Shown piece by piece: positions 31,322 through 42,104 of a stretch of DNA of 64,000 nt. A program made the translations under genes and the position numbers. The stretch lies in the IMG/VR virus record IMGVR_UViG_2698536476_000008; one strand, written 5' to 3'. The notes beneath the pieces are model-generated. The model worked only from the letters and a program-made list of their open reading frames with translations. It did no database searches and was not told where the DNA came from. The DNA comes from a virus (Duplodnaviria > Heunggongvirae > Uroviricota > Caudoviricetes). Every line of letters starts with the position of its first letter. Positions within the stretch are counted from its first letter, which is position 1.

Positions 31322-32515
31322 GTGACCTGGGACGATCACAAGAAGAATTTTGCTCGCCTGGCGCGAGATGGTGGTTACACCATCGCACAGTATGCCGCCG
31401 AGTTTAATCTTAACCCTAATACCGCACGTCGTTATCTCCGTGCCTTCAAAGAAGACACCAGGACAGCGGACAGCCGCAAGCCAAATAAGCCAGTCAGGAA
31501 GCCACTAAAAAGCATGATCATTGATCACTCTAATGATCAACATGCAGGTGATCACATTGCGGCTGAAACAGCGGAAAAACAAAGAGTTAATGCCGTTGTC
31601 AGTGCCGCAGTCGAGAATGCGAAGCGCCAAAATAAGCGCATAAATGATCGTTCAGATGATCATGACGTGATCACCCGCGCCCACCGGACCTTACGTGATC
31701 GCCTGGAACGCGACACCCTGGATGATGATGGTGAACGCTTTGAATTCGAAGCTGGCGATTACCTGATAGATAACGTTGAAGCGCGGAAGGCCGCGCGCGC
31801 TATGTTGCGTCGGTCCGGGGCCGATGTTCTGGAAACCACTCTTCTGGAAAAGTCTCTTTCTCATCTCCTTATGCTGGAGAACGCCAGGGATACGTGTATT
31901 CGCCTGGTGCAGGAAATGCGCGATCAGCAAAAAGACGATGATGAAGGTACTCCGCCTGAATACCGTATCGCGAGCATGCTAAACAGCTGTTCCGCGCAGA
32001 TAAGCAGTCTGATCAACACCATTTACAGCATCCGGAATAACTATCGAAAAGAAAGCCGGGAGGCGGAAAAGCACGCTTTGTCTATGGGGCAAGCTGGCAT
32101 TGTTAAGCTGGCATATGAACGAAAGCGTGAAAATAACTGGTCAGTGCTGGAAGCAGCTGAATTCATCGAGGCGCATGGTGGGAAAGTTCCGCCCCTGATG
32201 CTGGAGCAAATCAAAGCCGATCTGCGTGCTCCTAAGACCAATACCGATGATGAGGAAAGGCAAACAGCCGTCGGTGGCCCTTCTCTTGACGATCTGGACA
32301 AAGTTGCGCGAGAACGGGCCGCCAACCGCCGCGCCGATGCCGCATTGTGGATTGAGCAGCGTAGGGAAGAAATCGCCGATATCGTTGATACAGGCGGTTA
32401 TGGAGATGTTGATACTGAAGGTGTATCAAACGACCCATGGCTGGAACAAGACCTGGACGAAGACGAGGAGGAAGACGAAGAAGTTACCCGCAAGCTATAC
32501 GGGGATGATGATTAA
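31322..32515 (+). CDS. pacA: Pacase small subunit
   Basis: 397-aa ORF containing the pac hexamer cluster. Confidence 0.8.
31514..31673 (+). other. pac packaging site: two clusters of TGATCA/TGATCG hexamers (4 + 3 Dam sites) flanking the cleavage region
   Basis: Hexamers at 31514, 31522, 31534, 31549 and 31644, 31657, 31668. Confidence 0.75.
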
Positions 32516-33999
32516 TGGCCAGAAGTTGCGTAACGGATCCTCGTTGGCGCGAGCTGGTGGCGCTATATCGTTATGACTGGATTGCTGCCGCTGATGTTTT
32601 GTTCGGCAAAACACCTACCTGGCAGCAGGATCTGATTATTGAGTCTGTGCAGGAACAGGGTAGCAAGACATCTGTTTCGTCTGGTCACGGTACCGGGAAA
32701 TCAGACATGACTTCTATCATGATCATGTTGTTCATAATCATGTATCCCGGTGCCCGCGCCATTATCGTTGCGAACAAAATTCAGCAGGTAATGACCGGTA
32801 TATTCAAGTACATCAAGATAAACTGGGCTACTGCCACCAGCCGTTTTCCATGGCTTGCTGATTATTTTGTTCTGACAGAAACCGCTTTCTATGAGGTTAC
32901 TGGTAAAGGTGTATGGACTGTAGTACCGAAGGGCTTTCGTCTGGGAAGTGAAGAAGCTCTCGCCGGTGAACACGCAGATCATCTTCTGTATATTATCGAT
33001 GAAGCCTCCGGTGTCAGTGATAGAGCTTTCGGTATCATCACCGGTGCTCTTACCGGACAGGATAACCGCATCTTATTACTGTCACAGCCTACACGCCCAA
33101 GCGGCTATTTCTACGATACTCACCATAAACTGGCCAAGCGTCCTGGTAACCCAGATGGCGTTTATACGGCGATCACGCTTAACAGTGAGGAATCACCGCT
33201 GGTAACGCCAGAATTTATCAAAATGAAGCTGGCGGAGTACGGCGGGCGTGATAACCCTATGTACATGATTAAGGTGCGCGGCCTATTCCCTAAATCACAG
33301 GACGGCTTCCTTCTTGGACGTGATGAGGTTGAACGTGCAACGCGGCGGAAAGTTAAGATTGCCAAAGGATGGGGCTGGCTTGCATGTGTGGACGTTGCTG
33401 GTGGTACGGGACGGGATAAGTCAGTTATCAATATCATGATGGTGTCCGGCCAGCGAAATAAACGCCGTGTAATCAACTATCGAATGCTGGAATACACAGA
33501 CGTTACAGAAACGCAGCTTGCCGCCAAAATTTTCGCAGAATGTAATCCTGAGCGATTCCCCAATATCACCATAGCGATAGATGGCGATGGCCTGGGTAAA
33601 GCAACAGCGGATCTGATGTACGAGTATTATGGTATTACCGTACAGCGTATACGCTGGGGTAAAAAGATGCATAGCCGTGAAGATAAGAGCCTGTACTTTG
33701 ATAAACGTGCTTATGCCAACGTTCAAGCCGCAGAGGCCGTAAAATCTGGTCGTATGAGACTGGATAAGGGTAATGAAACTATTGAGGAAGCGTCGAAAAT
33801 CCCTGTAGGGATTAACTCCGCAGGTCAATGGAAGGTGATGAGTAAGGAGGATATGAAGAAAAAACTCAACCTGCACTCACCAGACCATTGGGATACATAT
33901 TGTTTCGCTATGCTGGCGGATTATGTTCCCCAGGATGAAGTGCTTAGCGTCGAAGACGAAGCGCAGGTTGATGAAGCTCTGGCATGGCTTAATGAATGA
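32515..33999 (+). CDS. pacB: Pacase large subunit (terminase large subunit-like)
   Basis: 494-aa ORF coupled to pacA. Confidence 0.8.
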
Positions 34000-34002
34000 A
34001 TA

Positions 34003-34019
34003 TTTGCTCTAATAAATTG
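34003..34019 (+). promoter_or_regulatory. C1 operator-like site (TTTGCTCTAATAAATTG) preceding the immI-like module
   Basis: Direct read. Confidence 0.5.
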
Positions 34020-34201
34020 TGTTTTTTAGCTACCGATGTTACATTGAACCTGACCTCTTGCGCCTTGAGGCATTTTCGGTTTATGCTTATCAGGCACCTC
34101 ATTAAAACGGGTGCCGGGATTGGCCTCCCGCTTAAGTCTAAGGCGATACAGACGCCGCTCGCGTCTTTTTTTGTATCGGCGTACACGCACACCTCTACAA
34201 T

Positions 34202-34277
34202 GGTGGGCTGTATGGGGCTACCTTCGGGTAGGCTGGTTACCTTGGACGCCAGTAAGGCCAACTCCGTACAGTCCACC
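34202..34277 (+). ncRNA. c4: c4-like structured antisense RNA candidate (about 76 nt, ends paired)
   Basis: GGTGGGCTGTA at 5' end pairs with TACAGTCCACC at 3' end; internal hairpin CTACCTTCGGGTAG; sits between operator and icd/ant. Confidence 0.45.
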
Positions 34278-34337
34278 GCCAGCAAGATTGGTCTCTTCTG
34301 CGGTGGTTACATACCAACGTCTAAGGAGGCTGCCAAT

Positions 34338-34559
34338 ATGGCTACTATCCCTACCCCAACTCATCCTGAATTTATCTGGCGCTTTTACTCCTGCCAAAAA
34401 CGTCACTATCACTTCGTTATTGCACCAACAGAAGATGAGGCCCGCTCTCAGCTGCCTGACGCCCCATGTATTTTCTCTGCCCGTTTTTCCACTGATTCAC
34501 GCAATTCTCTCAGTTACTGGTACCTCCCTGTTAACGCTTCTGTTCAGGAGGGGCTATGA
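34338..34559 (+). CDS. icd: Icd-like small protein overlapping ant start
   Basis: 73-aa ORF, TAAGGAGG RBS, ATGA overlap with next gene. Confidence 0.5.
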   Translation: MATIPTPTHPEFIWRFYSCQKRHYHFVIAPTEDEARSQLPDAPCIFSARFSTDSRNSLSYWYLPVNASVQEGL

Positions 34560-35674
34560 GAACGTCATTAGTCACCCGTGAAGAGATGATCGAGGCAATT
34601 GAACAGCACACTGCCTGTATCAGCACCAGGGATATTCCCAGTGTTATAGCCAACTACTTCATGATCACTAAACAACTTTACCGGAGAAAGGACAAGAACG
34701 CGGTTCACCGTATCCTGCTGTCTGATATTCGCGAATACCTGCTCGAACAGGGTCATCTGAATTACGCAACCGTCGCAGCCGAAGCACGCAAGGAGGCACA
34801 CAGAATGAAAGCAACTAACGTTAAATCAGAAAAAATTCATGCACCTTCAGTTCAGGAATCGGAGCTGGTGGTTGTTCAGAATCAGTCTGATGAAATTCCC
34901 GTTCTGGAATGGCAGGGAGTGCGTGTAGTGACAACCGAGACTCTTGCTAGAGGGTATGGGACAGAAACAATCCGTATTCGCCAAAATCATCATGAGAACA
35001 AAGTACGCTTTGTTGAAGGGAAGCACTTTTTCAAAGTTGAAGGAGAATCATTGCGCGAGTTGAAGCACAGAGTAGCTTTAAACTACTCTGTAAAAATTGC
35101 TCGCAATGTTCGCTCACTCACCCTCTGGACAGAACGCGGCGCAGCCCGCCACGCTAAAATGCTCGAAACCGATCAGGCATGGGCATTCTTTGAAAAACTG
35201 GAAGACAGCTACTTCCGACAAAAAGAACAGCAACCGATCGCAATCCCCCAGACGCTTCCTGAAGCCCTACGCCTGGCTGCCGAACTGGCTGAACAAAAGC
35301 AACTTCTGGAACAGAAAGCCCACCAGCTAAATCAGCAGCTGGTGGCCGCCGCTCCTAAAGTCGATTTTGCCGACCGGGTATCAGTAGCTAAAGGGATCCT
35401 GATTGGGAATTTTGCAAAGGTTGTTGGACTTAAGCAAAACGCGCTGTTTGTCTGGTTACGGGAGAACGGCATCCTGATAGCGTCCGGTGGACGTAAAAAT
35501 GTGCCGTTCCAGCAGTACATCAACGCGGGGTATTTCACGGTGAAAGAAGTGGTGCTGGATGATGAAGATGGCTACCAGATACGGTTGACGCCTCAATTAA
35601 CGGGTAAAGGCCAGCAGTGGTTGACGCGTAAACTGCTCGATGCTGGCTTGTTAAAACCGGTGGCAGCTGAATAA
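34556..35674 (+). CDS. ant: Antirepressor (ORF6N-like N-domain, Ant/KilAC-like C-domain); possible internal start for shorter isoform
   Basis: 372-aa ORF with antirepressor-type sequence features. Confidence 0.6.
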   Translation: MRTSLVTREEMIEAIEQHTACISTRDIPSVIANYFMITKQLYRRKDKNAVHRILLSDIREYLLEQGHLNYATVAAEARKEAHRMKATNVKSEKIHAPSVQESELVVVQNQSDEIPVLEWQGVRVVTTETLARGYGTETIRIRQNHHENKVRFVEGKHFFKVEGESLRELKHRVALNYSVKIARNVRSLTLWTERGAARHAKMLETDQAWAFFEKLEDSYFRQKEQQPIAIPQTLPEALRLAAELAEQKQLLEQKAHQLNQQLVAAAPKVDFADRVSVAKGILIGNFAKVVGLKQNALFVWLRENGILIASGGRKNVPFQQYINAGYFTVKEVVLDDEDGYQIRLTPQLTGKGQQWLTRKLLDAGLLKPVAAE

Positions 35675-35706
35675 TGGAAGAATGCCCGGTTGATGCCGGG
35701 CATAAT

Positions 35707-36558
35707 TTATTGCGCGCTTTCGGGGTTGTCGTTTACTGGCTGCCCCTTCTTGGTTTTACGACTGCGCGTAACTGATGCGGCTGACTTAACCTTTTTCTCT
35801 TCGCGAGTGATGGCAATTTGTTTTTTTACATTTTCAATATCTGCCAGGCGATATATTTTTGCTTGCGGCCAGCGGTCGCAGATGATCGGTTCTATGGAGT
35901 CATAAAGGCTAAATTTTGCTTTTTCGAATTCACCGTTGATGATAATTCCATCACGGAGAGTTTCATCGCAGATAAACACGCCACACAGTGGCACATGGTA
36001 ACTAACTGATTTACCATCATTGTAGTTAGGGCTACTGGAAATGTAGTGGACGCGCAGCATTGTTTCGCTAAAGCCGTGTACGCGCATACGGAATTTTTCA
36101 TCCTCCGGGTACTGCCTCATTAGCTCTTTTGTTGCTTCCAGGTTCTCTATGTATTTCGCACTGTGCTCATTGATCCCCGCGCTTTTCTGGATGCGAATGT
36201 CCTTATCAATCAGATGAATAATGCGGCCAGCGGTCATGTTGACGCTGTTCACAGCTTCTGTCTGATAAGTTGTAACCTTACGCACACCGCGAAGGATGTT
36301 AGGCACTGGATATAAAATAGTCTTTGGGATATTGAGGTCTGGGTACTGTTCCAGTTCCCGCGCCATTAAAGTCCATTTATCAATTTCAGCCTGAATGCTG
36401 TCCGTTTCTTTGAACGGCAGAACGACAACCGGGCGAACAGGACGACCGTCGCTGGCGGCATCAACGTGTTGGGCGCGTGCAACAGCTTTTTTTAGAAAGA
36501 GATCCCTGAAGCTGACGAACTCCTGGTACAGTTGTTCGCCGTAGACATAATTTATCAT
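35707..36558 (-). CDS. c1: C1 repressor of lysis/lysogeny
   Basis: 283-aa ORF MINYVYGEQLYQEF...; position between pacB side and coi/loxP; its operator motif is scattered through the window. Confidence 0.8.
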   Translation of the reverse strand: MINYVYGEQLYQEFVSFRDLFLKKAVARAQHVDAASDGRPVRPVVVLPFKETDSIQAEIDKWTLMARELEQYPDLNIPKTILYPVPNILRGVRKVTTYQTEAVNSVNMTAGRIIHLIDKDIRIQKSAGINEHSAKYIENLEATKELMRQYPEDEKFRMRVHGFSETMLRVHYISSSPNYNDGKSVSYHVPLCGVFICDETLRDGIIINGEFEKAKFSLYDSIEPIICDRWPQAKIYRLADIENVKKQIAITREEKKVKSAASVTRSRKTKKGQPVNDNPESAQ

Positions 36559-36652
36559 TGATCCTCCTCCAGAATTGACATGGCCAACAACTCACAGCGG
36601 ATTACACTGGGAGTTGTTGGCCACCATTATAGAAGGATCCAACGAAAATAAT

Positions 36653-36669
36653 AGATTTATTAGTGCATT
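36653..36669 (-). promoter_or_regulatory. Degenerate C1 operator-like site between coi and c1
   Basis: Reverse complement ATGCACTAATAAATCT. Confidence 0.35.
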
Positions 36670-36878
36670 TATTGTGAGTCTGGCTGGTTAGTGGCCATGA
36701 GATATTCGATTGTGTCAGTGAGATCATCCAGGTCGTCTTGGGTGATGCGGTACTCCTGATTGGATATCTTTGAGTAGTGTTCAGCAATGGCGCGGGCAGC
36801 GTCGGTTTCGGCGGGGTCTACAGATAAAGCGTTAGAGCAATGTCTAACGTCGTCGATGGTTGGTGGAATGAAAGCCAT
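36669..36878 (-). CDS. coi: C1 inactivator-like protein
   Basis: 69-aa ORF immediately upstream of c1 on same strand. Confidence 0.6.
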   Translation of the reverse strand: MAFIPPTIDDVRHCSNALSVDPAETDAARAIAEHYSKISNQEYRITQDDLDDLTDTIEYLMATNQPDSQ

Positions 36879-39254: not shown

Positions 39255-39352
39255 CTATAATTTGGCCGCAGTTTTTGTCAACTACGAAGACGTTGCCATT
39301 ACTTCACTCCTTGACATCATTGGCGGCCATTAGGCCGCCTTTTTTTTGCCAT

Positions 39353-39913
39353 ATGAAAACAATCGAACAAAAACTTGAACAGCGCCGCGAGTGGCAGAAG
39401 GCAGCCAGAGAACGAGCGATCGCTCGGCAACGGGAAAAGTTGGCTGACCCCGCCTGGCGAGAATCGCAATATCAGAAAATGCGGGATTCTATCGACCGCC
39501 GTATCGCTAAACAGAAAGAGCGCCCACCAGCCAGCAAAACGCGGAAAAGTGCGGTAAAAATAAAATCTCGTGGCTTGAAGGGGCGAACACCGACGGAGGA
39601 GGAACAGACTATCGCCAATGCTCTTGGCACTCTCCCCTGCATTGCCTGCTACATGCATGGAGTAATATCTGAAGAGGTGTCTCTGCACCATATCTCCGGT
39701 CGTACCGCGCCGGGTTGTCACAAAAAGCAATTGCCCCTTTGCAGATGGCACCACCAGCATGCAGCACCGGCTGAAGTAAGAGAAAAATACCCCTGGCTGG
39801 TCCCTGTTCATGCCGATGGCGTGGTAGGAGGCAAGAAAGAATTCACCTTGTTGAACAAGTCAGAGATGGAGTTGCTGGCTGACGCCTATGAAATGGCAAA
39901 CATCATGCACTAA
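39353..39913 (+). CDS. ref: Ref, RecA-dependent HNH-family nuclease (recombination enhancement function)
   Basis: 186 aa from ATG 39353; basic N-terminus, Cys/His cluster CIACYMHG...HHISGR...CHKKQLPLCRWHH. Confidence 0.75.
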   Translation: MKTIEQKLEQRREWQKAARERAIARQREKLADPAWRESQYQKMRDSIDRRIAKQKERPPASKTRKSAVKIKSRGLKGRTPTEEEQTIANALGTLPCIACYMHGVISEEVSLHHISGRTAPGCHKKQLPLCRWHHQHAAPAEVREKYPWLVPVHADGVVGGKKEFTLLNKSEMELLADAYEMANIMH

Positions 39914-40799: not shown

Positions 40800-42104
40800 A
40801 TGAGCGAGTATATAGAAATTGCCTATGCAGCAGCTACACATAGGCTGTGCTTTCTTACAGGCACTGGATTTTCAAAGGCTGTTTCTGATGATAAAGCCCC
40901 AAGTTGGCAATCTTTATTGGAGCAACTGTGCGGTTTATTGAAGGATGGTGACTCACTCAAAGAGGAATTATTTCCTGATGGAAAAGCAAAAGACCTTAGC
41001 CTTGAAGAGGCTGCTCAAGTTATTGCACTAAAATTTATACTTTCGGGGAAAAATATTTACCAGGAGATTGAGAAAATCATAGCCTCAATCGAACTTGATC
41101 CATCAATTGAATATATTCAAGACTTTTTCAAAGAAAACACATTTAAAGTAATTACGACAAATTATGACAAGTTAGCAGAAAAACTGGCTGGAGAGAATCG
41201 AACGTGTACAATCACCCCCGGCCTGCCAATTCCAAAATATAATTGTGAGGTTAAAGTCTACCATGTTCACGGCTCTATAGACTCCCCATCAGATATGGTT
41301 GTTACTAGCGAGGATTATTTCAGATTTATAAATGGTAATTCTTACTTTTCAAATAAACTAAGCACAGTTCTACATGAAAACACTATTGTTATTCTTGGCT
41401 ATTCTCTAAGTGACGCGAACCTCAAGGCGATTATAAATGAATATAAGGTATTTTCACGGGACAACGTAATGTCCTCCAATATTTTCCTTATTTCCCGAGG
41501 AAAACTATTGCAACCTATTAAAGATTACTATTTTTCCTGCTTTGGGATTAGGGTTATAGATAAAACAGAGGTGTCTGATTTCTTTAGAAAACTTAACAAG
41601 AAAATTCCAGAAGCAAAAAAAATAAAAGACAAATTGAGGCACTCAATCAAATCGGTAATAAAAAACGGAAGAGAGTATAAAATAGAGTTCTTGAAGTTAG
41701 AGGATTCTTTTTATCATATCATTTCCTCCATTTCATCATCTGGATATAGCTGGAATGATGAAAAGGTATTAAATGTTTTTTGTGATATAATAGATAAAAA
41801 AATAGATCTTACTAAAGAGTCTGGCGCATGGGAGCAGTATGAACACCTGGCAAAATGGCTTATTTATTTCGGTAGTTTATTTGAAGTAAAAGGAACCAAC
41901 TTTGAGAAAAAATACATACATGCGGTTGAACACTCAATGACTTATATGAATAAACCTTACGAAACAGGCTACTCATGGCGAGCATATCTAGCCTGGAAAA
42001 CAAAATGGCCTTCACTGACAGCATCTAACCGCTCTCTTATTAAGAGTAAGATGGAAGAAATCCCGCTACAACAGATTCACGATATTATATCTAAGTTTAT
42101 ATAG
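40800..42104 (+). CDS. SIR2-like (sirtuin-fold, SIR2_2/DSR-ThsA type) protein with uncharacterised C-terminal half; candidate single-gene antiphage defense
   Basis: N-terminal motifs LCFLTGTGFSK, VITTNYDKL, KVYHVHGS; low GC relative to flanks; occupies the mat to lxc interval. Confidence 0.7.
   Translation: MSEYIEIAYAAATHRLCFLTGTGFSKAVSDDKAPSWQSLLEQLCGLLKDGDSLKEELFPDGKAKDLSLEEAAQVIALKFILSGKNIYQEIEKIIASIELDPSIEYIQDFFKENTFKVITTNYDKLAEKLAGENRTCTITPGLPIPKYNCEVKVYHVHGSIDSPSDMVVTSEDYFRFINGNSYFSNKLSTVLHENTIVILGYSLSDANLKAIINEYKVFSRDNVMSSNIFLISRGKLLQPIKDYYFSCFGIRVIDKTEVSDFFRKLNKKIPEAKKIKDKLRHSIKSVIKNGREYKIEFLKLEDSFYHIISSISSSGYSWNDEKVLNVFCDIIDKKIDLTKESGAWEQYEHLAKWLIYFGSLFEVKGTNFEKKYIHAVEHSMTYMNKPYETGYSWRAYLAWKTKWPSLTASNRSLIKSKMEEIPLQQIHDIISKFI

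What the first reader, a model, noticed from the sequence alone, without database searches (positions are those of the whole stretch)
34003..36878. immI-like module (operator, c4-like RNA, icd, ant) lies directly beside immC (c1, coi)
Between pacB and the 3' end of c1 there is a C1 operator, a structured RNA candidate, a small ORF overlapping an antirepressor gene by ATGA, and then c1 and coi on the opposite strand. In the canonical P1 map as I remember it, immI (c4/icd/ant) is far from immC, near the sim/kilA-repL region. If my recollection is right, this genome has consolidated two immunity regions.
Basis: partly seen in the sequence, partly recalled or inferred. Interest (0 to 1): 0.45.

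Follow-up and report, generated by a model that had tools for sequence, protein, structure and literature searches.

The report
Second antirepressor switch beside P1 repressor
This P1-like phage-plasmid carries a complete antisense-RNA-controlled antirepressor cassette (operator, decoy RNA, C4 RNA, icd, ant) between the terminase gene pacB and the repressor gene c1, where reference P1 has 24 bases; the cassette is real, but it is common in related plasmids and has already been noted in print, and the one complete relative read in full also keeps the classical immI region.

Summary
Window 34000-35706 replaces the 24-nt pacB/c1 spacer of reference P1 with a full immI-type operon. It holds a C1 operator overlapping a promoter, an IsrK-type a1/b1 RNA element with its own terminator, a C4 antisense RNA (Rfam 75.9 bits) and a2/b2 target sites covering the icd ribosome-binding site. 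It also holds icd (75% identical to P1 Icd), an ATGA-coupled ant (56% to P1 Ant1, internal Ant2 start conserved) and a terminator hairpin facing c1.

The "consolidation" reading is not supported. The closest complete relative (CP098993.1) carries this cassette and also the canonical sim-c4-icd-ant-kilA immI, so the cassette is an extra copy, not a relocation. The canonical site lies outside this window.

The cassette is common: 272 of 589 PLSDB plasmids that match the pacB 3' end carry it. It is annotated in phage RCS47 and was mentioned by Venturini et al. 2019.

The one added point is that its C4 loops and targets co-vary across six alleles. They differ at every site from the P1- and P7-type C4, and divergence between alleles is concentrated in the RNA cassette. 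So these plasmids probably carry two independent RNA immunity specificities. It is an ordinary member of a known system, of low to moderate interest.

The parts
34003..34019 (+). C1 operator-like site (TTTGCTCTAATAAATTG), 4 nt after the pacB stop codon
   Evidence: It matches 15 of 17 positions of ATTGCTCTAATAAATTT. It aligns column for column with P1 Oc4/Op51 (annotation).
34017..34045 (+). Putative C1-controlled promoter (-35 TTGTGT 34017-34022, 17-nt spacer, TGn-extended -10 TACATT 34040-34045); counterpart of P1 P2c4/P51a
   Evidence: Placed by alignment to the annotated P1 promoter. Its -35 overlaps the operator. The generic promoter scan did not call it.
34065..34093 (+). Putative second promoter (-35 TTGAGG, 17-nt spacer, -10 TATCAG); counterpart of the P1 promoter P1c4/P51b. 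It is a weak consensus match.
   Evidence: Placed by alignment to P1. It ends exactly where the Rfam isrK match begins. The whole stretch is identical in the RCS47 allele and 98% identical in the JL22 allele.
34094..34173 (+). IsrK-type a1/b1 RNA element: a1 TTGGCCT 34120-34126 in a hairpin loop, b1 GTCTAAGG 34136-34143, terminator hairpin 34150-34166 and T-run 34167-34173
   Evidence: Rfam RF01394, 60.8 bits. The terminator-like site was found and the fold. a1 and b1 are complementary to the C4 a' and b' sequences.
34196..34283 (+). C4 antisense RNA (mature form predicted at about 34202-34280); b' CCTTGGAC 34240-34247 in the loop of hairpin 2, a' AGGCCAA 34255-34261 in the junction
   Evidence: Rfam RF01695, 75.9 bits. 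Fold z = -3.5. Across six alleles, 99.4% of cells are paired and 13 of 27 pairs show compensatory changes.
34288..34329 (+). C4 target sites in the icd leader: a2 TTGGTCT 34288-34294, b2 GTCTAAGG 34319-34326 overlapping the Shine-Dalgarno AAGGAGG 34323-34329
   Evidence: The pattern TTGGYCT-N5-35-GTCTAAGG occurs only twice in the window, at a1b1 and a2b2, against 0.02 expected. The sites co-vary with a' and b' across alleles.
34338..34559 (+). icd-like gene (73 aa)
   Evidence: 75% identical to P1 Icd over its full length. PGAP annotates it in relatives as 'host cell division inhibitor Icd-like protein'.
34556..35674 (+). ant (Ant1-like, 372 aa), overlapping icd by ATGA; internal Ant2-like start at 34805 (Met84) behind AAGGAGG
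   Evidence: 56% identical to P1 Ant1. The N-terminal 100 aa and the C-terminal KilAC part are alike, and the middle is replaced. Pfam finds ORF6N at 116-202 and ANT at 260-361. The internal start context is conserved with P1 ant2.
35682..35703 (.). GC-rich hairpin between the convergent ant and c1 genes (likely bidirectional terminator)
   Evidence: Found. Fold -18 kcal/mol, z = -4.7.
35707..36558 (-). c1 repressor gene (immC)
   Evidence: NCBIfam NF041318 equivalog, 611 bits. 281/283 identical to P1 C1.100.
36669..36878 (-). coi (C1 inactivator, immC)
   Evidence: 69/69 identical to P1 Coi.

Best explanation
Window 34000-35706 is a second, self-contained immI-type antirepressor operon inserted between pacB and c1 of a P1-like phage-plasmid.

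Anatomy (shown by sequence):
- A C1 operator overlaps a promoter, followed by a second promoter.
- An IsrK-type leader RNA carries a1/b1 sites and its own terminator.
- A C4 antisense RNA has a' and b' sequences that are complementary to a1/b1. They are also complementary to a2/b2, which covers the icd ribosome-binding site.
- icd is translationally coupled to ant, and ant has an internal Ant2 start.
- A hairpin terminator faces c1.

Inferred mechanism, by homology with P1/P7 immI:
- In the lysogen, C1 shuts the operator-linked promoter.
- The other promoter supplies C4 RNA, processed from the transcript.
- C4 pairs with a2/b2 and blocks icd translation. Because ant depends on icd translation, ant expression is blocked too.
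- When C4 is absent or non-cognate, Icd and Ant1/Ant2 are made and Ant inactivates C1. The C1 here is 99% identical to P1 C1.
- The a1/b1 leader RNA probably titrates C4, as short IsrK activates orf45-anrP in Gifsy-1.

This C4 differs from the P1- and P7-type C4 at every recognition site. In the one complete relative examined, the canonical immI is still present. The cassette therefore most likely adds a second, independent RNA immunity specificity rather than relocating immI.
For: - Rfam finds C4 (75.9 bits) and isrK (60.8 bits), both above their gathering scores and in the right order and strand.
- The operator and both promoters align with the annotated P1 Oc4, P2c4 and P1c4.
- The a1/b1 and a2/b2 pattern occurs exactly twice in 64 kb, against 0.02 expected.
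- Across six IsrK-type alleles and three canonical alleles, a1, a' and a2 change together, and so do b1, b' and b2.
  - Window allele: TTGGCCT / AGGCCAA / TTGGTCT and GTCTAAGG / CCTTGGAC.
  - RCS47 allele: TTGAGAC / GTCTCAA and GTCAAAGG / CCTTTGAC.
  - P1 allele: TTGACAG / CTGTCAA and GTTAGTGA / TCACTAAC.
- In one search the window C4 pairs best with its own leader: -24.8 kcal/mol, against -16.4 to -19.1 for the other leaders. Each of the other C4 alleles is also best, or tied for best, with its own leader.
- The C4 stems keep 99.4% pairing, with 13 compensatory pairs.
- Icd is 75% identical to P1 Icd. Ant is 56% identical to P1 Ant1, with a nearly identical KilAC C-terminus and a conserved Ant2 start.
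- C1 is 99% and Coi 100% identical to P1.
- The relative CP098993.1 has both modules.
- Divergence between the window allele and the RCS47 and JL22 alleles is confined to the RNA cassette (34100-34340) and one Ant segment.
- Trans-activation by IsrK and the AUGA coupling in Gifsy-1 are described in PMC4825925.
Against: - Nothing here shows expression, C4 processing, C1 binding to the operator, or Ant acting on C1. All of these are inferred from homology.
- The second promoter has a poor -10 (TATCAG), and the generic promoter scan called neither promoter.
- The window allele pairs with b1, b2 and a2 through one G-U wobble each.
- The crude duplex energies predict partial cross-reaction between IsrK-type alleles that share one site.
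- The Ant middle domain (ORF6N) differs from that of P1 Ant1, so its target could differ.
- Whether the window's own genome also has the canonical immI cannot be seen within 64 kb.
Confidence: 0.8

Rival explanations
1. Relocation or consolidation: immI has moved from the sim/kilA region to sit beside immC, so the genome has a single merged immunity region.
For: - The module is a complete immI-type unit next to c1.
- The window contains no other C4, sim or kilA.
- A few plasmids with this module show only one ant-like place, for example NZ_CP099352.1 and NZ_CP145673.1.
Against: - The closest complete relative has both modules.
- 26 of the 30 best plasmid matches have at least two ant-like places.
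- NZ_CP145673.1 is a degraded P1 remnant filled with capsule genes and insertion sequences, so its loss of immI is uninformative.
- The module differs in kind from canonical immI in its IsrK-type leader, its C4 loops and its ORF6N domain in Ant.
- By collinearity with CP098993.1, the canonical site would lie about 16 kb beyond the window end.
Confidence: 0.07
2. The cassette is the same, but its Ant does not act on P1 C1. Instead it targets the repressor of another resident prophage, giving lambdoid- or Gifsy-type cross-talk, and the cassette is cargo acquired from such phages.
For: - The segment 34095-35224 (leader, C4, icd, Ant N-terminus and ORF6N) is about 76% identical to antB/anti-repressor regions of Stx-converting lambdoid phages.
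- The leader belongs to the Gifsy-1 IsrK family.
- Gifsy antirepressors act in trans on other prophages (PMC3121763, listed).
- ORF6N is absent from P1 Ant1.
Against: - The cassette has a P1-type C1 operator at the position of Op51.
- The N-terminal 100 aa of Ant and the whole KilAC C-terminal part match P1 Ant1/Ant2. The C-terminal part is nearly identical in protein and 81-86% identical in DNA.
- The Ant2 start is conserved.
- The cassette is fixed at one site in hundreds of P1-like plasmids.
Confidence: 0.1
3. The cassette is an inert remnant: a hitch-hiking insertion without function.
For: - No expression data are available.
- The second promoter is weak.
- In phage vB_EcoM-673R5 the homologous ant and c1 are annotated as fragments.
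Against: - All ORFs are intact in the window.
- Three-way co-variation of a1, a' and a2 and of b1, b' and b2 across alleles would not be maintained without selection, nor would 13 compensatory stem pairs.
- The cassette is present in 272-289 plasmids.
Confidence: 0.03

Closest known systems
immI region of phages P1 and P7 (Op51/P51a-P51b, a1 b1, c4, a2 b2, icd, ant1/ant2)
   Same: - The order of parts is the same.
- The C1 operator overlaps the first promoter.
- The C4 RNA has the same fold, with b' in the loop of hairpin 2 and a' in the junction.
- b2 overlaps the icd Shine-Dalgarno sequence.
- Icd is 75% identical, and icd and ant overlap by ATGA.
- The Ant2 internal start and the KilAC C-terminus are conserved.

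   Different: - The location is pacB/c1 rather than sim/kilA.
- The leader matches Rfam isrK, not c4-a1b1.
- The a and b recognition sequences are all different.
- Ant has an ORF6N middle domain.
- In the one complete relative read in full it exists in addition to the canonical immI.
The ant insertion between pacB and c1 in phage RCS47, plasmid pTZ20_1P, phage JL22 and phage vB_EcoM-673R5
   Same: - The site and junctions are the same.
- The operator-promoter stretch is identical in RCS47 and 98-100% identical in JL22.
- The icd and ant backbone is the same.
[quoted passage not shown]
   Different: - The RCS47 and JL22 alleles differ from the window allele in the a1b1-C4-a2b2 cassette (50-80% identity) and in one Ant segment. 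They therefore have different predicted RNA specificity.
- The vB_EcoM-673R5 allele is the same type as the window allele.
Gifsy-1 isrK-orf45-anrP locus of Salmonella (IsrK, with STnc1160 processed from the orf45 region)
   Same: - An IsrK-family leader RNA with its own terminator lies upstream.
- It is followed by a small upstream ORF that overlaps an antirepressor gene by AUGA.
- Read-through of the leader terminator makes the mRNA (PMC4825925).
   Different: - Gifsy-1 has no C1 operator, and the paper names no Icd homologue.
- There the antirepressor leads to AntQ expression.
- In Gifsy-1 the short leader RNA has been shown to activate in trans. Here that role is only inferred.
antB/anti-repressor modules of Stx-converting lambdoid phages (for example P13374, TL-2011c)
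   Same: About 76% nucleotide identity over the leader, C4, icd and the first two thirds of ant.
   Different: They sit in a lambdoid context next to antitermination and regulatory genes. I did not examine them for a P1 C1 operator or for the C-terminal part of ant.

Membership tests
P1/P7 immI-type c4-icd-ant operon | C4 antisense RNA with the family's sequence and structure | tested here: met
   Rfam RF01695, 75.9 bits against a gathering score of 45, covering the full model. 99.4% of cells paired and 13 compensatory pairs across six alleles.
P1/P7 immI-type c4-icd-ant operon | The a' and b' sequences of C4 are complementary to a2/b2 in the leader, with b2 covering the icd ribosome-binding site | tested here: met
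   a' AGGCCAA pairs with a2 TTGGTCT (one G-U). b' CCTTGGAC pairs with b2 GTCTAAGG (one G-U). b2 overlaps AAGGAGG, which lies 8 nt before the ATG. The sites co-vary across alleles.
P1/P7 immI-type c4-icd-ant operon | A second copy of the target sites (a1/b1) upstream of c4 | tested here: met
   a1 is at 34120-34126 and b1 at 34136-34143. They sit in an element that matches Rfam isrK rather than c4-a1b1.
P1/P7 immI-type c4-icd-ant operon | C1-controlled operator overlapping the upstream promoter | tested here: inconclusive
   The sequence matches 15 of 17 positions at the position homologous to Op51. Binding by C1 was not tested.
P1/P7 immI-type c4-icd-ant operon | icd homologue translationally coupled to ant, with Ant1 and in-frame Ant2 products | tested here: met
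   Icd is 75% identical. The ATGA overlap is present. Met84 follows AAGGAGG as in P1 ant2. Ant is 56% identical to Ant1.
P1/P7 immI-type c4-icd-ant operon | Ant inactivates the C1 repressor; C4 is cut out of the operon transcript by RNase P | not testable with these tools
   This needs biochemistry or genetics. It is supported only indirectly, by the conserved KilAC C-terminus and by C1 being 99% identical to P1 C1.
P1/P7 immI-type c4-icd-ant operon | Map position between sim and kilA-repL | tested here: not met
   It lies between pacB and c1. P1 immI is at 48.1-49.7 kb, and the P1 pacB/c1 gap is 24 nt. Position is a property of the P1 locus, not of the mechanism.
IsrK RNA family (Rfam RF01394) | Matches the covariance model above the gathering score and ends in an intrinsic terminator | tested here: met
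   60.8 bits against 50. Hairpin 34150-34166 followed by a T-run.
IsrK RNA family (Rfam RF01394) | The short RNA activates translation of the downstream ORF and antirepressor in trans | not testable with these tools
   Shown for Gifsy-1 only (PMC4825925).
Phage repressor C1 (NCBIfam NF041318) | Full-length match above the equivalog cut-off | tested here: met
   611 bits against a cut-off of 500. 281/283 identical to P1 C1.100.

The most novel reading that the evidence does not exclude
P1-like phage-plasmids carry two, and sometimes three, interchangeable antirepressor cassettes, each locked by its own C4 RNA. Together these would form a combinatorial immunity code.

- The a and b recognition sites reassort. 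In the IsrK-type cassette, four a variants and three b variants give six observed combinations.
- Divergence between alleles is concentrated in the 240-nt RNA cassette.
- That pattern is what diversifying selection for escape from, and protection against, related superinfecting elements would produce.
- Placing one cassette directly against c1 would make repressor and antirepressor specificity co-inherit as one linkage unit.
Probability: 0.3. Interest if true: 0.45.

Novelty: already known. Interest (0 to 1): 0.2.

Why it matters
It matters mainly for annotation and for typing P1-like phage-plasmids, which often carry resistance genes.

**Annotation.** The pacB/c1 insert is a full regulatory unit containing two RNA genes. 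PGAP either misses these or covers them with spurious ORFs. Examples are the 'ash family protein' ORF over C4 and an over-long Icd ORF.

**Biology, if the inference holds.** If the two cassettes have independent specificities, superinfection immunity and mutual induction among co-resident P1-like plasmids would depend on two RNA specificities rather than one. That would bear on which of these plasmids can coexist or displace each other. It does not change what is known about how immI works.

Tried and rejected
1. My first comparison of the small ORF with P1 Icd used a start coordinate one base off (34339), so it read the wrong frame and found nothing. With 34338 the identity is 75%.
2. The generic sigma-70 scan found no promoter in 34000-34100. 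The promoters are placed only by alignment to the annotated P1 promoters.
3. Pfam and NCBIfam have no model that matches the Icd-like protein or Coi.
4. I tried to find the window's source record so I could look for the canonical immI directly. The best matches are 98.8-98.9% identical in PLSDB and in RefSeq E. coli genomes, so the source is not held.
5. A scan of IMG/VR for the operator-promoter string gave only three contigs. Allele diversity was therefore taken from PLSDB and the phage records instead.
6. Inclusion-exclusion on record counts gives only a weak lower bound on co-occurrence of the two modules. The counts are c1 in 702 records, canonical immI in 451 and the junction in 272. Co-occurrence rests on one fully read relative and on the place counts of the top 30 matches.
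7. Insertion versus deletion: the P1 24-nt spacer shares ATGCCGG with the cassette's terminal hairpin. That is too little to decide whether P1 lost the cassette or the others gained it.
8. Literature searches for a described 'second immI' found only the one sentence in PMC6906374.
Full report
**What the window is**

The window is the backbone of a P1-like phage-plasmid (genus Punavirus). The 5 kb around the finding is 98.2% identical to phage vB_EcoM-673R5, and parts of it are 92-99% identical to P1, P7, SJ46 and RCS47. The closest long matches are IncY plasmids of E. coli at 98.4-98.9% over 24 kb. The exact source record is not in the collections searched.

**Checking the observation**

- pacB runs from 32515 to 33999 on the + strand.
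- A 17-mer, TTTGCTCTAATAAATTG (34003-34019), starts four bases after the pacB stop codon. It matches 15 of 17 positions of the C1 operator consensus. The window holds nine sites with at most two mismatches, against 0.03 expected.
- Rfam finds a full-length C4 antisense RNA at 34196-34283 (75.9 bits, gathering score 45).
- Rfam also finds an isrK match just upstream at 34094-34171 (60.8 bits, gathering score 50).
- The C4 stretch folds at -41.6 kcal/mol, z = -3.5.
- A 73-codon ORF at 34338-34559 is 75% identical to P1 Icd. My first attempt used a start one base off and failed.
- The Icd-like ORF's TGA overlaps the ATG of a 372-codon ant gene (34556-35674) as ATGA.
- c1 (35707-36558) and coi (36669-36878) follow on the minus strand. 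C1 is 281/283 identical to P1 C1.100 and Coi is 69/69 identical to P1 Coi.

Every item in the finding is therefore present at the stated coordinates.

In reference P1 (NC_005856), pacB ends at 93206 and c1 ends at 93231. Only 24 bases separate them. P1 immI (Oc4, P2c4, P1c4, a1, b1, c4, a2, b2, icd, ant1/ant2) lies at 48.1-49.7 kb between sim and kilA.

An alignment of the junctions shows that window 34000-35706 replaces exactly that 24-nt spacer. The recollection was right, and the "would refute" condition is not met.

**Anatomy of the module**

Aligned to the P1 immI leader, the window keeps each part in the same order:

- The operator sits at the position of Op51.
- The first promoter has a -35 (TTGTGT) that overlaps the operator, and a TGn-extended -10 (TACATT).
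- The second promoter (TTGAGG, 17 nt, TATCAG) ends where the isrK match begins.

The generic promoter scan called neither promoter, so they rest on homology alone.

The isrK-type element has two hairpins, a single-stranded linker, and a terminator hairpin with a T-run at 34150-34173.

In P1, b' lies in the loop of C4 hairpin 2 and a' lies in the following junction. At the same positions the window C4 has CCTTGGAC and AGGCCAA. Their complements occur twice and only twice in the window, against 0.02 expected:

- TTGGCCT ... GTCTAAGG inside the isrK-type element (a1, b1).
- TTGGTCT ... GTCTAAGG in the icd leader (a2, b2).

b2 overlaps the Shine-Dalgarno sequence AAGGAGG, 8 nt before the icd ATG.

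Ant is 56% identical to P1 Ant1. The first 100 residues and the KilAC C-terminal part are alike, and the middle is replaced by an ORF6N domain that P1 Ant1 lacks. Met84 sits behind AAGGAGG exactly as the P1 ant2 start does.

A GC-rich hairpin (35682-35703; -18 kcal/mol, z = -4.7) separates the convergent ant and c1 genes.

**Evidence that the RNA parts are under selection**

I collected alleles of the module from RCS47, JL22, three IMG/VR contigs and three plasmids, plus three canonical immI loci. The recognition sites change together at all three places:

| Allele | a1 | a' | a2 | b1/b2 | b' |
|---|---|---|---|---|---|
| Window | TTGGCCT | AGGCCAA | TTGGTCT | GTCTAAGG | CCTTGGAC |
| RCS47 | TTGAGAC | GTCTCAA | TTGAGAC | GTCAAAGG | CCTTTGAC |
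| JL22 | TTGAGAC | GTCTCAA | TTGAGAC | GCAAAAGG | CCTTTTGC |
| L009 | TTGGAAC | GTTCCAA | TTGGAAC | GCAAAAGG | CCTTTTGC |
| L010 | TTGGTCT | AGACCAA | TTGGTCT | GTCAAAGG | CCTTTGAC |
| L011 | TTGGAAC | GTTCCAA | TTGGAAC | GTCAAAGG | CCTTTGAC |
| P1 (canonical) | TTGACAG | CTGTCAA | TTGACAG | GTTAGTGC / GTTAGTGA | TCACTAAC |
| P7-like (canonical, CP098993.1) | TTAGCAG | CTGCTAA | TTAGCAG | GATTGTG | CACAATC |

- Summed duplex energies put the window C4 clearly with its own leader: -24.8 kcal/mol, against -16.4 to -19.1 for the other leaders. Each other C4 allele is also best, or tied for best, with its own leader, and alleles that share one site show partial cross-reaction.
- Across the six IsrK-type C4 alleles, 99.4% of base-pair cells are paired and 13 of 27 pairs carry compensatory changes. 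No shuffle and no slid register comes close.
- The window allele is at least 82% identical to the RCS47 and JL22 alleles in every 50-nt window outside two islands. One island is 34100-34340, the a1b1-C4-a2b2 cassette, at about 50-80% identity. The other lies inside the ORF6N part of ant, at about 34950-35100 in RCS47 and extending to about 35200 in JL22.

**Extra copy or relocation**

- The window has only one C4. Nothing else in it matches the P1 sim-to-kilA region.
- By collinearity with CP098993.1, the canonical site would lie about 16 kb beyond the window's end.
- In CP098993.1 both units are present. The canonical immI has c4-a1b1, C4, icd and ant next to kilA and repL. The pacB/c1 module has isrK plus C4.
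- 26 of the 30 best plasmid matches to the module show at least two ant-like places.
- One record with a single place, NZ_CP145673.1, is a degraded P1 remnant full of capsule genes and insertion sequences.

The module is therefore best read as an additional paralogous cassette. For the window's own genome this remains an inference.

**How common it is, and what was already known**

| PLSDB count | Records |
|---|---|
| c1 present | 702 |
| Match to the query starting in the pacB 3' end | 589 |
| pacB end joined to the operator-promoter | 272 |
| At least 80% of the whole insert | 289 |
| Window-type RNA cassette (at least 95% identity) | 103 |
| RNA-cassette matches at 60-80% identity (the listed full-length ones have an RCS47-like layout) | about 150 |
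| Canonical immI | 451 |

RCS47 has annotated an ant gene at this site since its deposition. Venturini et al. [quoted passage not shown] RCS47)" (PMC6906374).

The searchable literature contains no description of this insert as a full second immI with its own C4 specificity. Much of the older P1 literature is not in that library.

**Mechanism**

From the established P1/P7 model, named here from my own knowledge of that literature and not tested:

- C1 would repress the operator-linked promoter.
- C4 would be processed from the operon transcript.
- C4 would pair with a2/b2 and block icd translation, and with it ant expression.
- Ant1/Ant2 would inactivate C1.

In Gifsy-1, a short IsrK RNA made by termination activates translation of the read-through isrK-orf45-anrP mRNA in trans. 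There too the upstream ORF overlaps the antirepressor gene by AUGA (PMC4825925). The leader here belongs to the IsrK family and carries a1/b1, so it most likely acts as a decoy for C4.

The window C4 shares no recognition site with the P1- or P7-type C4. The two cassettes should therefore be regulated independently, and a lysogen would need both cognate C4 RNAs to silence an incoming relative that carries both.

**Verdict**

The feature is a widespread member of a well-known regulatory family, already annotated and already mentioned in print. The only modest addition is the co-varying specificity of the second cassette, which differs at every site from the P1 and P7 types.

Noticed in passing
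L008 1688-3416 (IMG/VR contig UViG_2778261541_000006); equivalent to window 39345-39905: This contig carries the pacB/c1 module and also a further c4-a1b1/C4/icd/ant cassette in place of the ref-gene region downstream of cre. immI-type cassettes therefore occupy at least three different sites in P1-like genomes. Venturini 2019 reports icd-ant homologues near the same end of pSvP1.
   Followed up: partly
window 40800-42104 (+): A 434-aa SIR2-like protein (Pfam SIR2_2; PADLOC PDC-S25, ThsA-like). Relatives differ here: CP098993.1 has a RelA/SpoT-domain gene next to the maturation-control gene, and other relatives list a SIR2 family gene. It looks like a variable defence-gene slot.
   Followed up: partly
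L011 511-630, L012 513-632; CP098993.1 58301-58777: PGAP annotates an 'ash family protein' ORF lying on the C4 RNA in RCS47-type alleles. It also annotates an over-long 'Icd-like' ORF that runs back across C4 in CP098993.1. Both are likely annotation artefacts over an RNA gene.
   Followed up: no
window 34950-35100: A second island of low identity (46-64%) between the window allele and the RCS47 and JL22 alleles lies inside the ORF6N domain of Ant. The rest of ant is 84-100% identical to RCS47, while in JL22 the low-identity island runs on to about 35200. Its meaning is unknown.
   Followed up: no
L001 3055-5054 (phage vB_EcoM-673R5, ON470615.2): In this otherwise 98% identical phage record, ant is annotated as a shorter 774-nt 'Roi' gene and c1 is split into three small CDSs. 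The causes could be frameshifts, sequencing errors, or a clear-plaque-type mutant.
   Followed up: no
NZ_CP178203.1 3560006-3583980: The best E. coli RefSeq match to window 22000-46000 (98.9% identity, 92% coverage) lies in a 5.2-Mb chromosome record rather than a plasmid. It is either an integrated P1-like element or an assembly join.
   Followed up: no
window 4105-4258 and 6259-6334 (+): Three tRNA genes are present (Asn-GTT, Thr-TGT and a CAT anticodon), as expected for a P1-type backbone.
   Followed up: no
L014 (NZ_CP148392.1 39.5-40.6 kb) and L011 (NZ_CP117014.1): IsrK-type C4/icd units with other a/b combinations occur in phage-plasmids with different replicons (rep_cluster_1704 and 2221). 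In NZ_CP148392.1 the unit sits next to a Ref-family nuclease gene and no ant gene is annotated downstream.
   Followed up: partly
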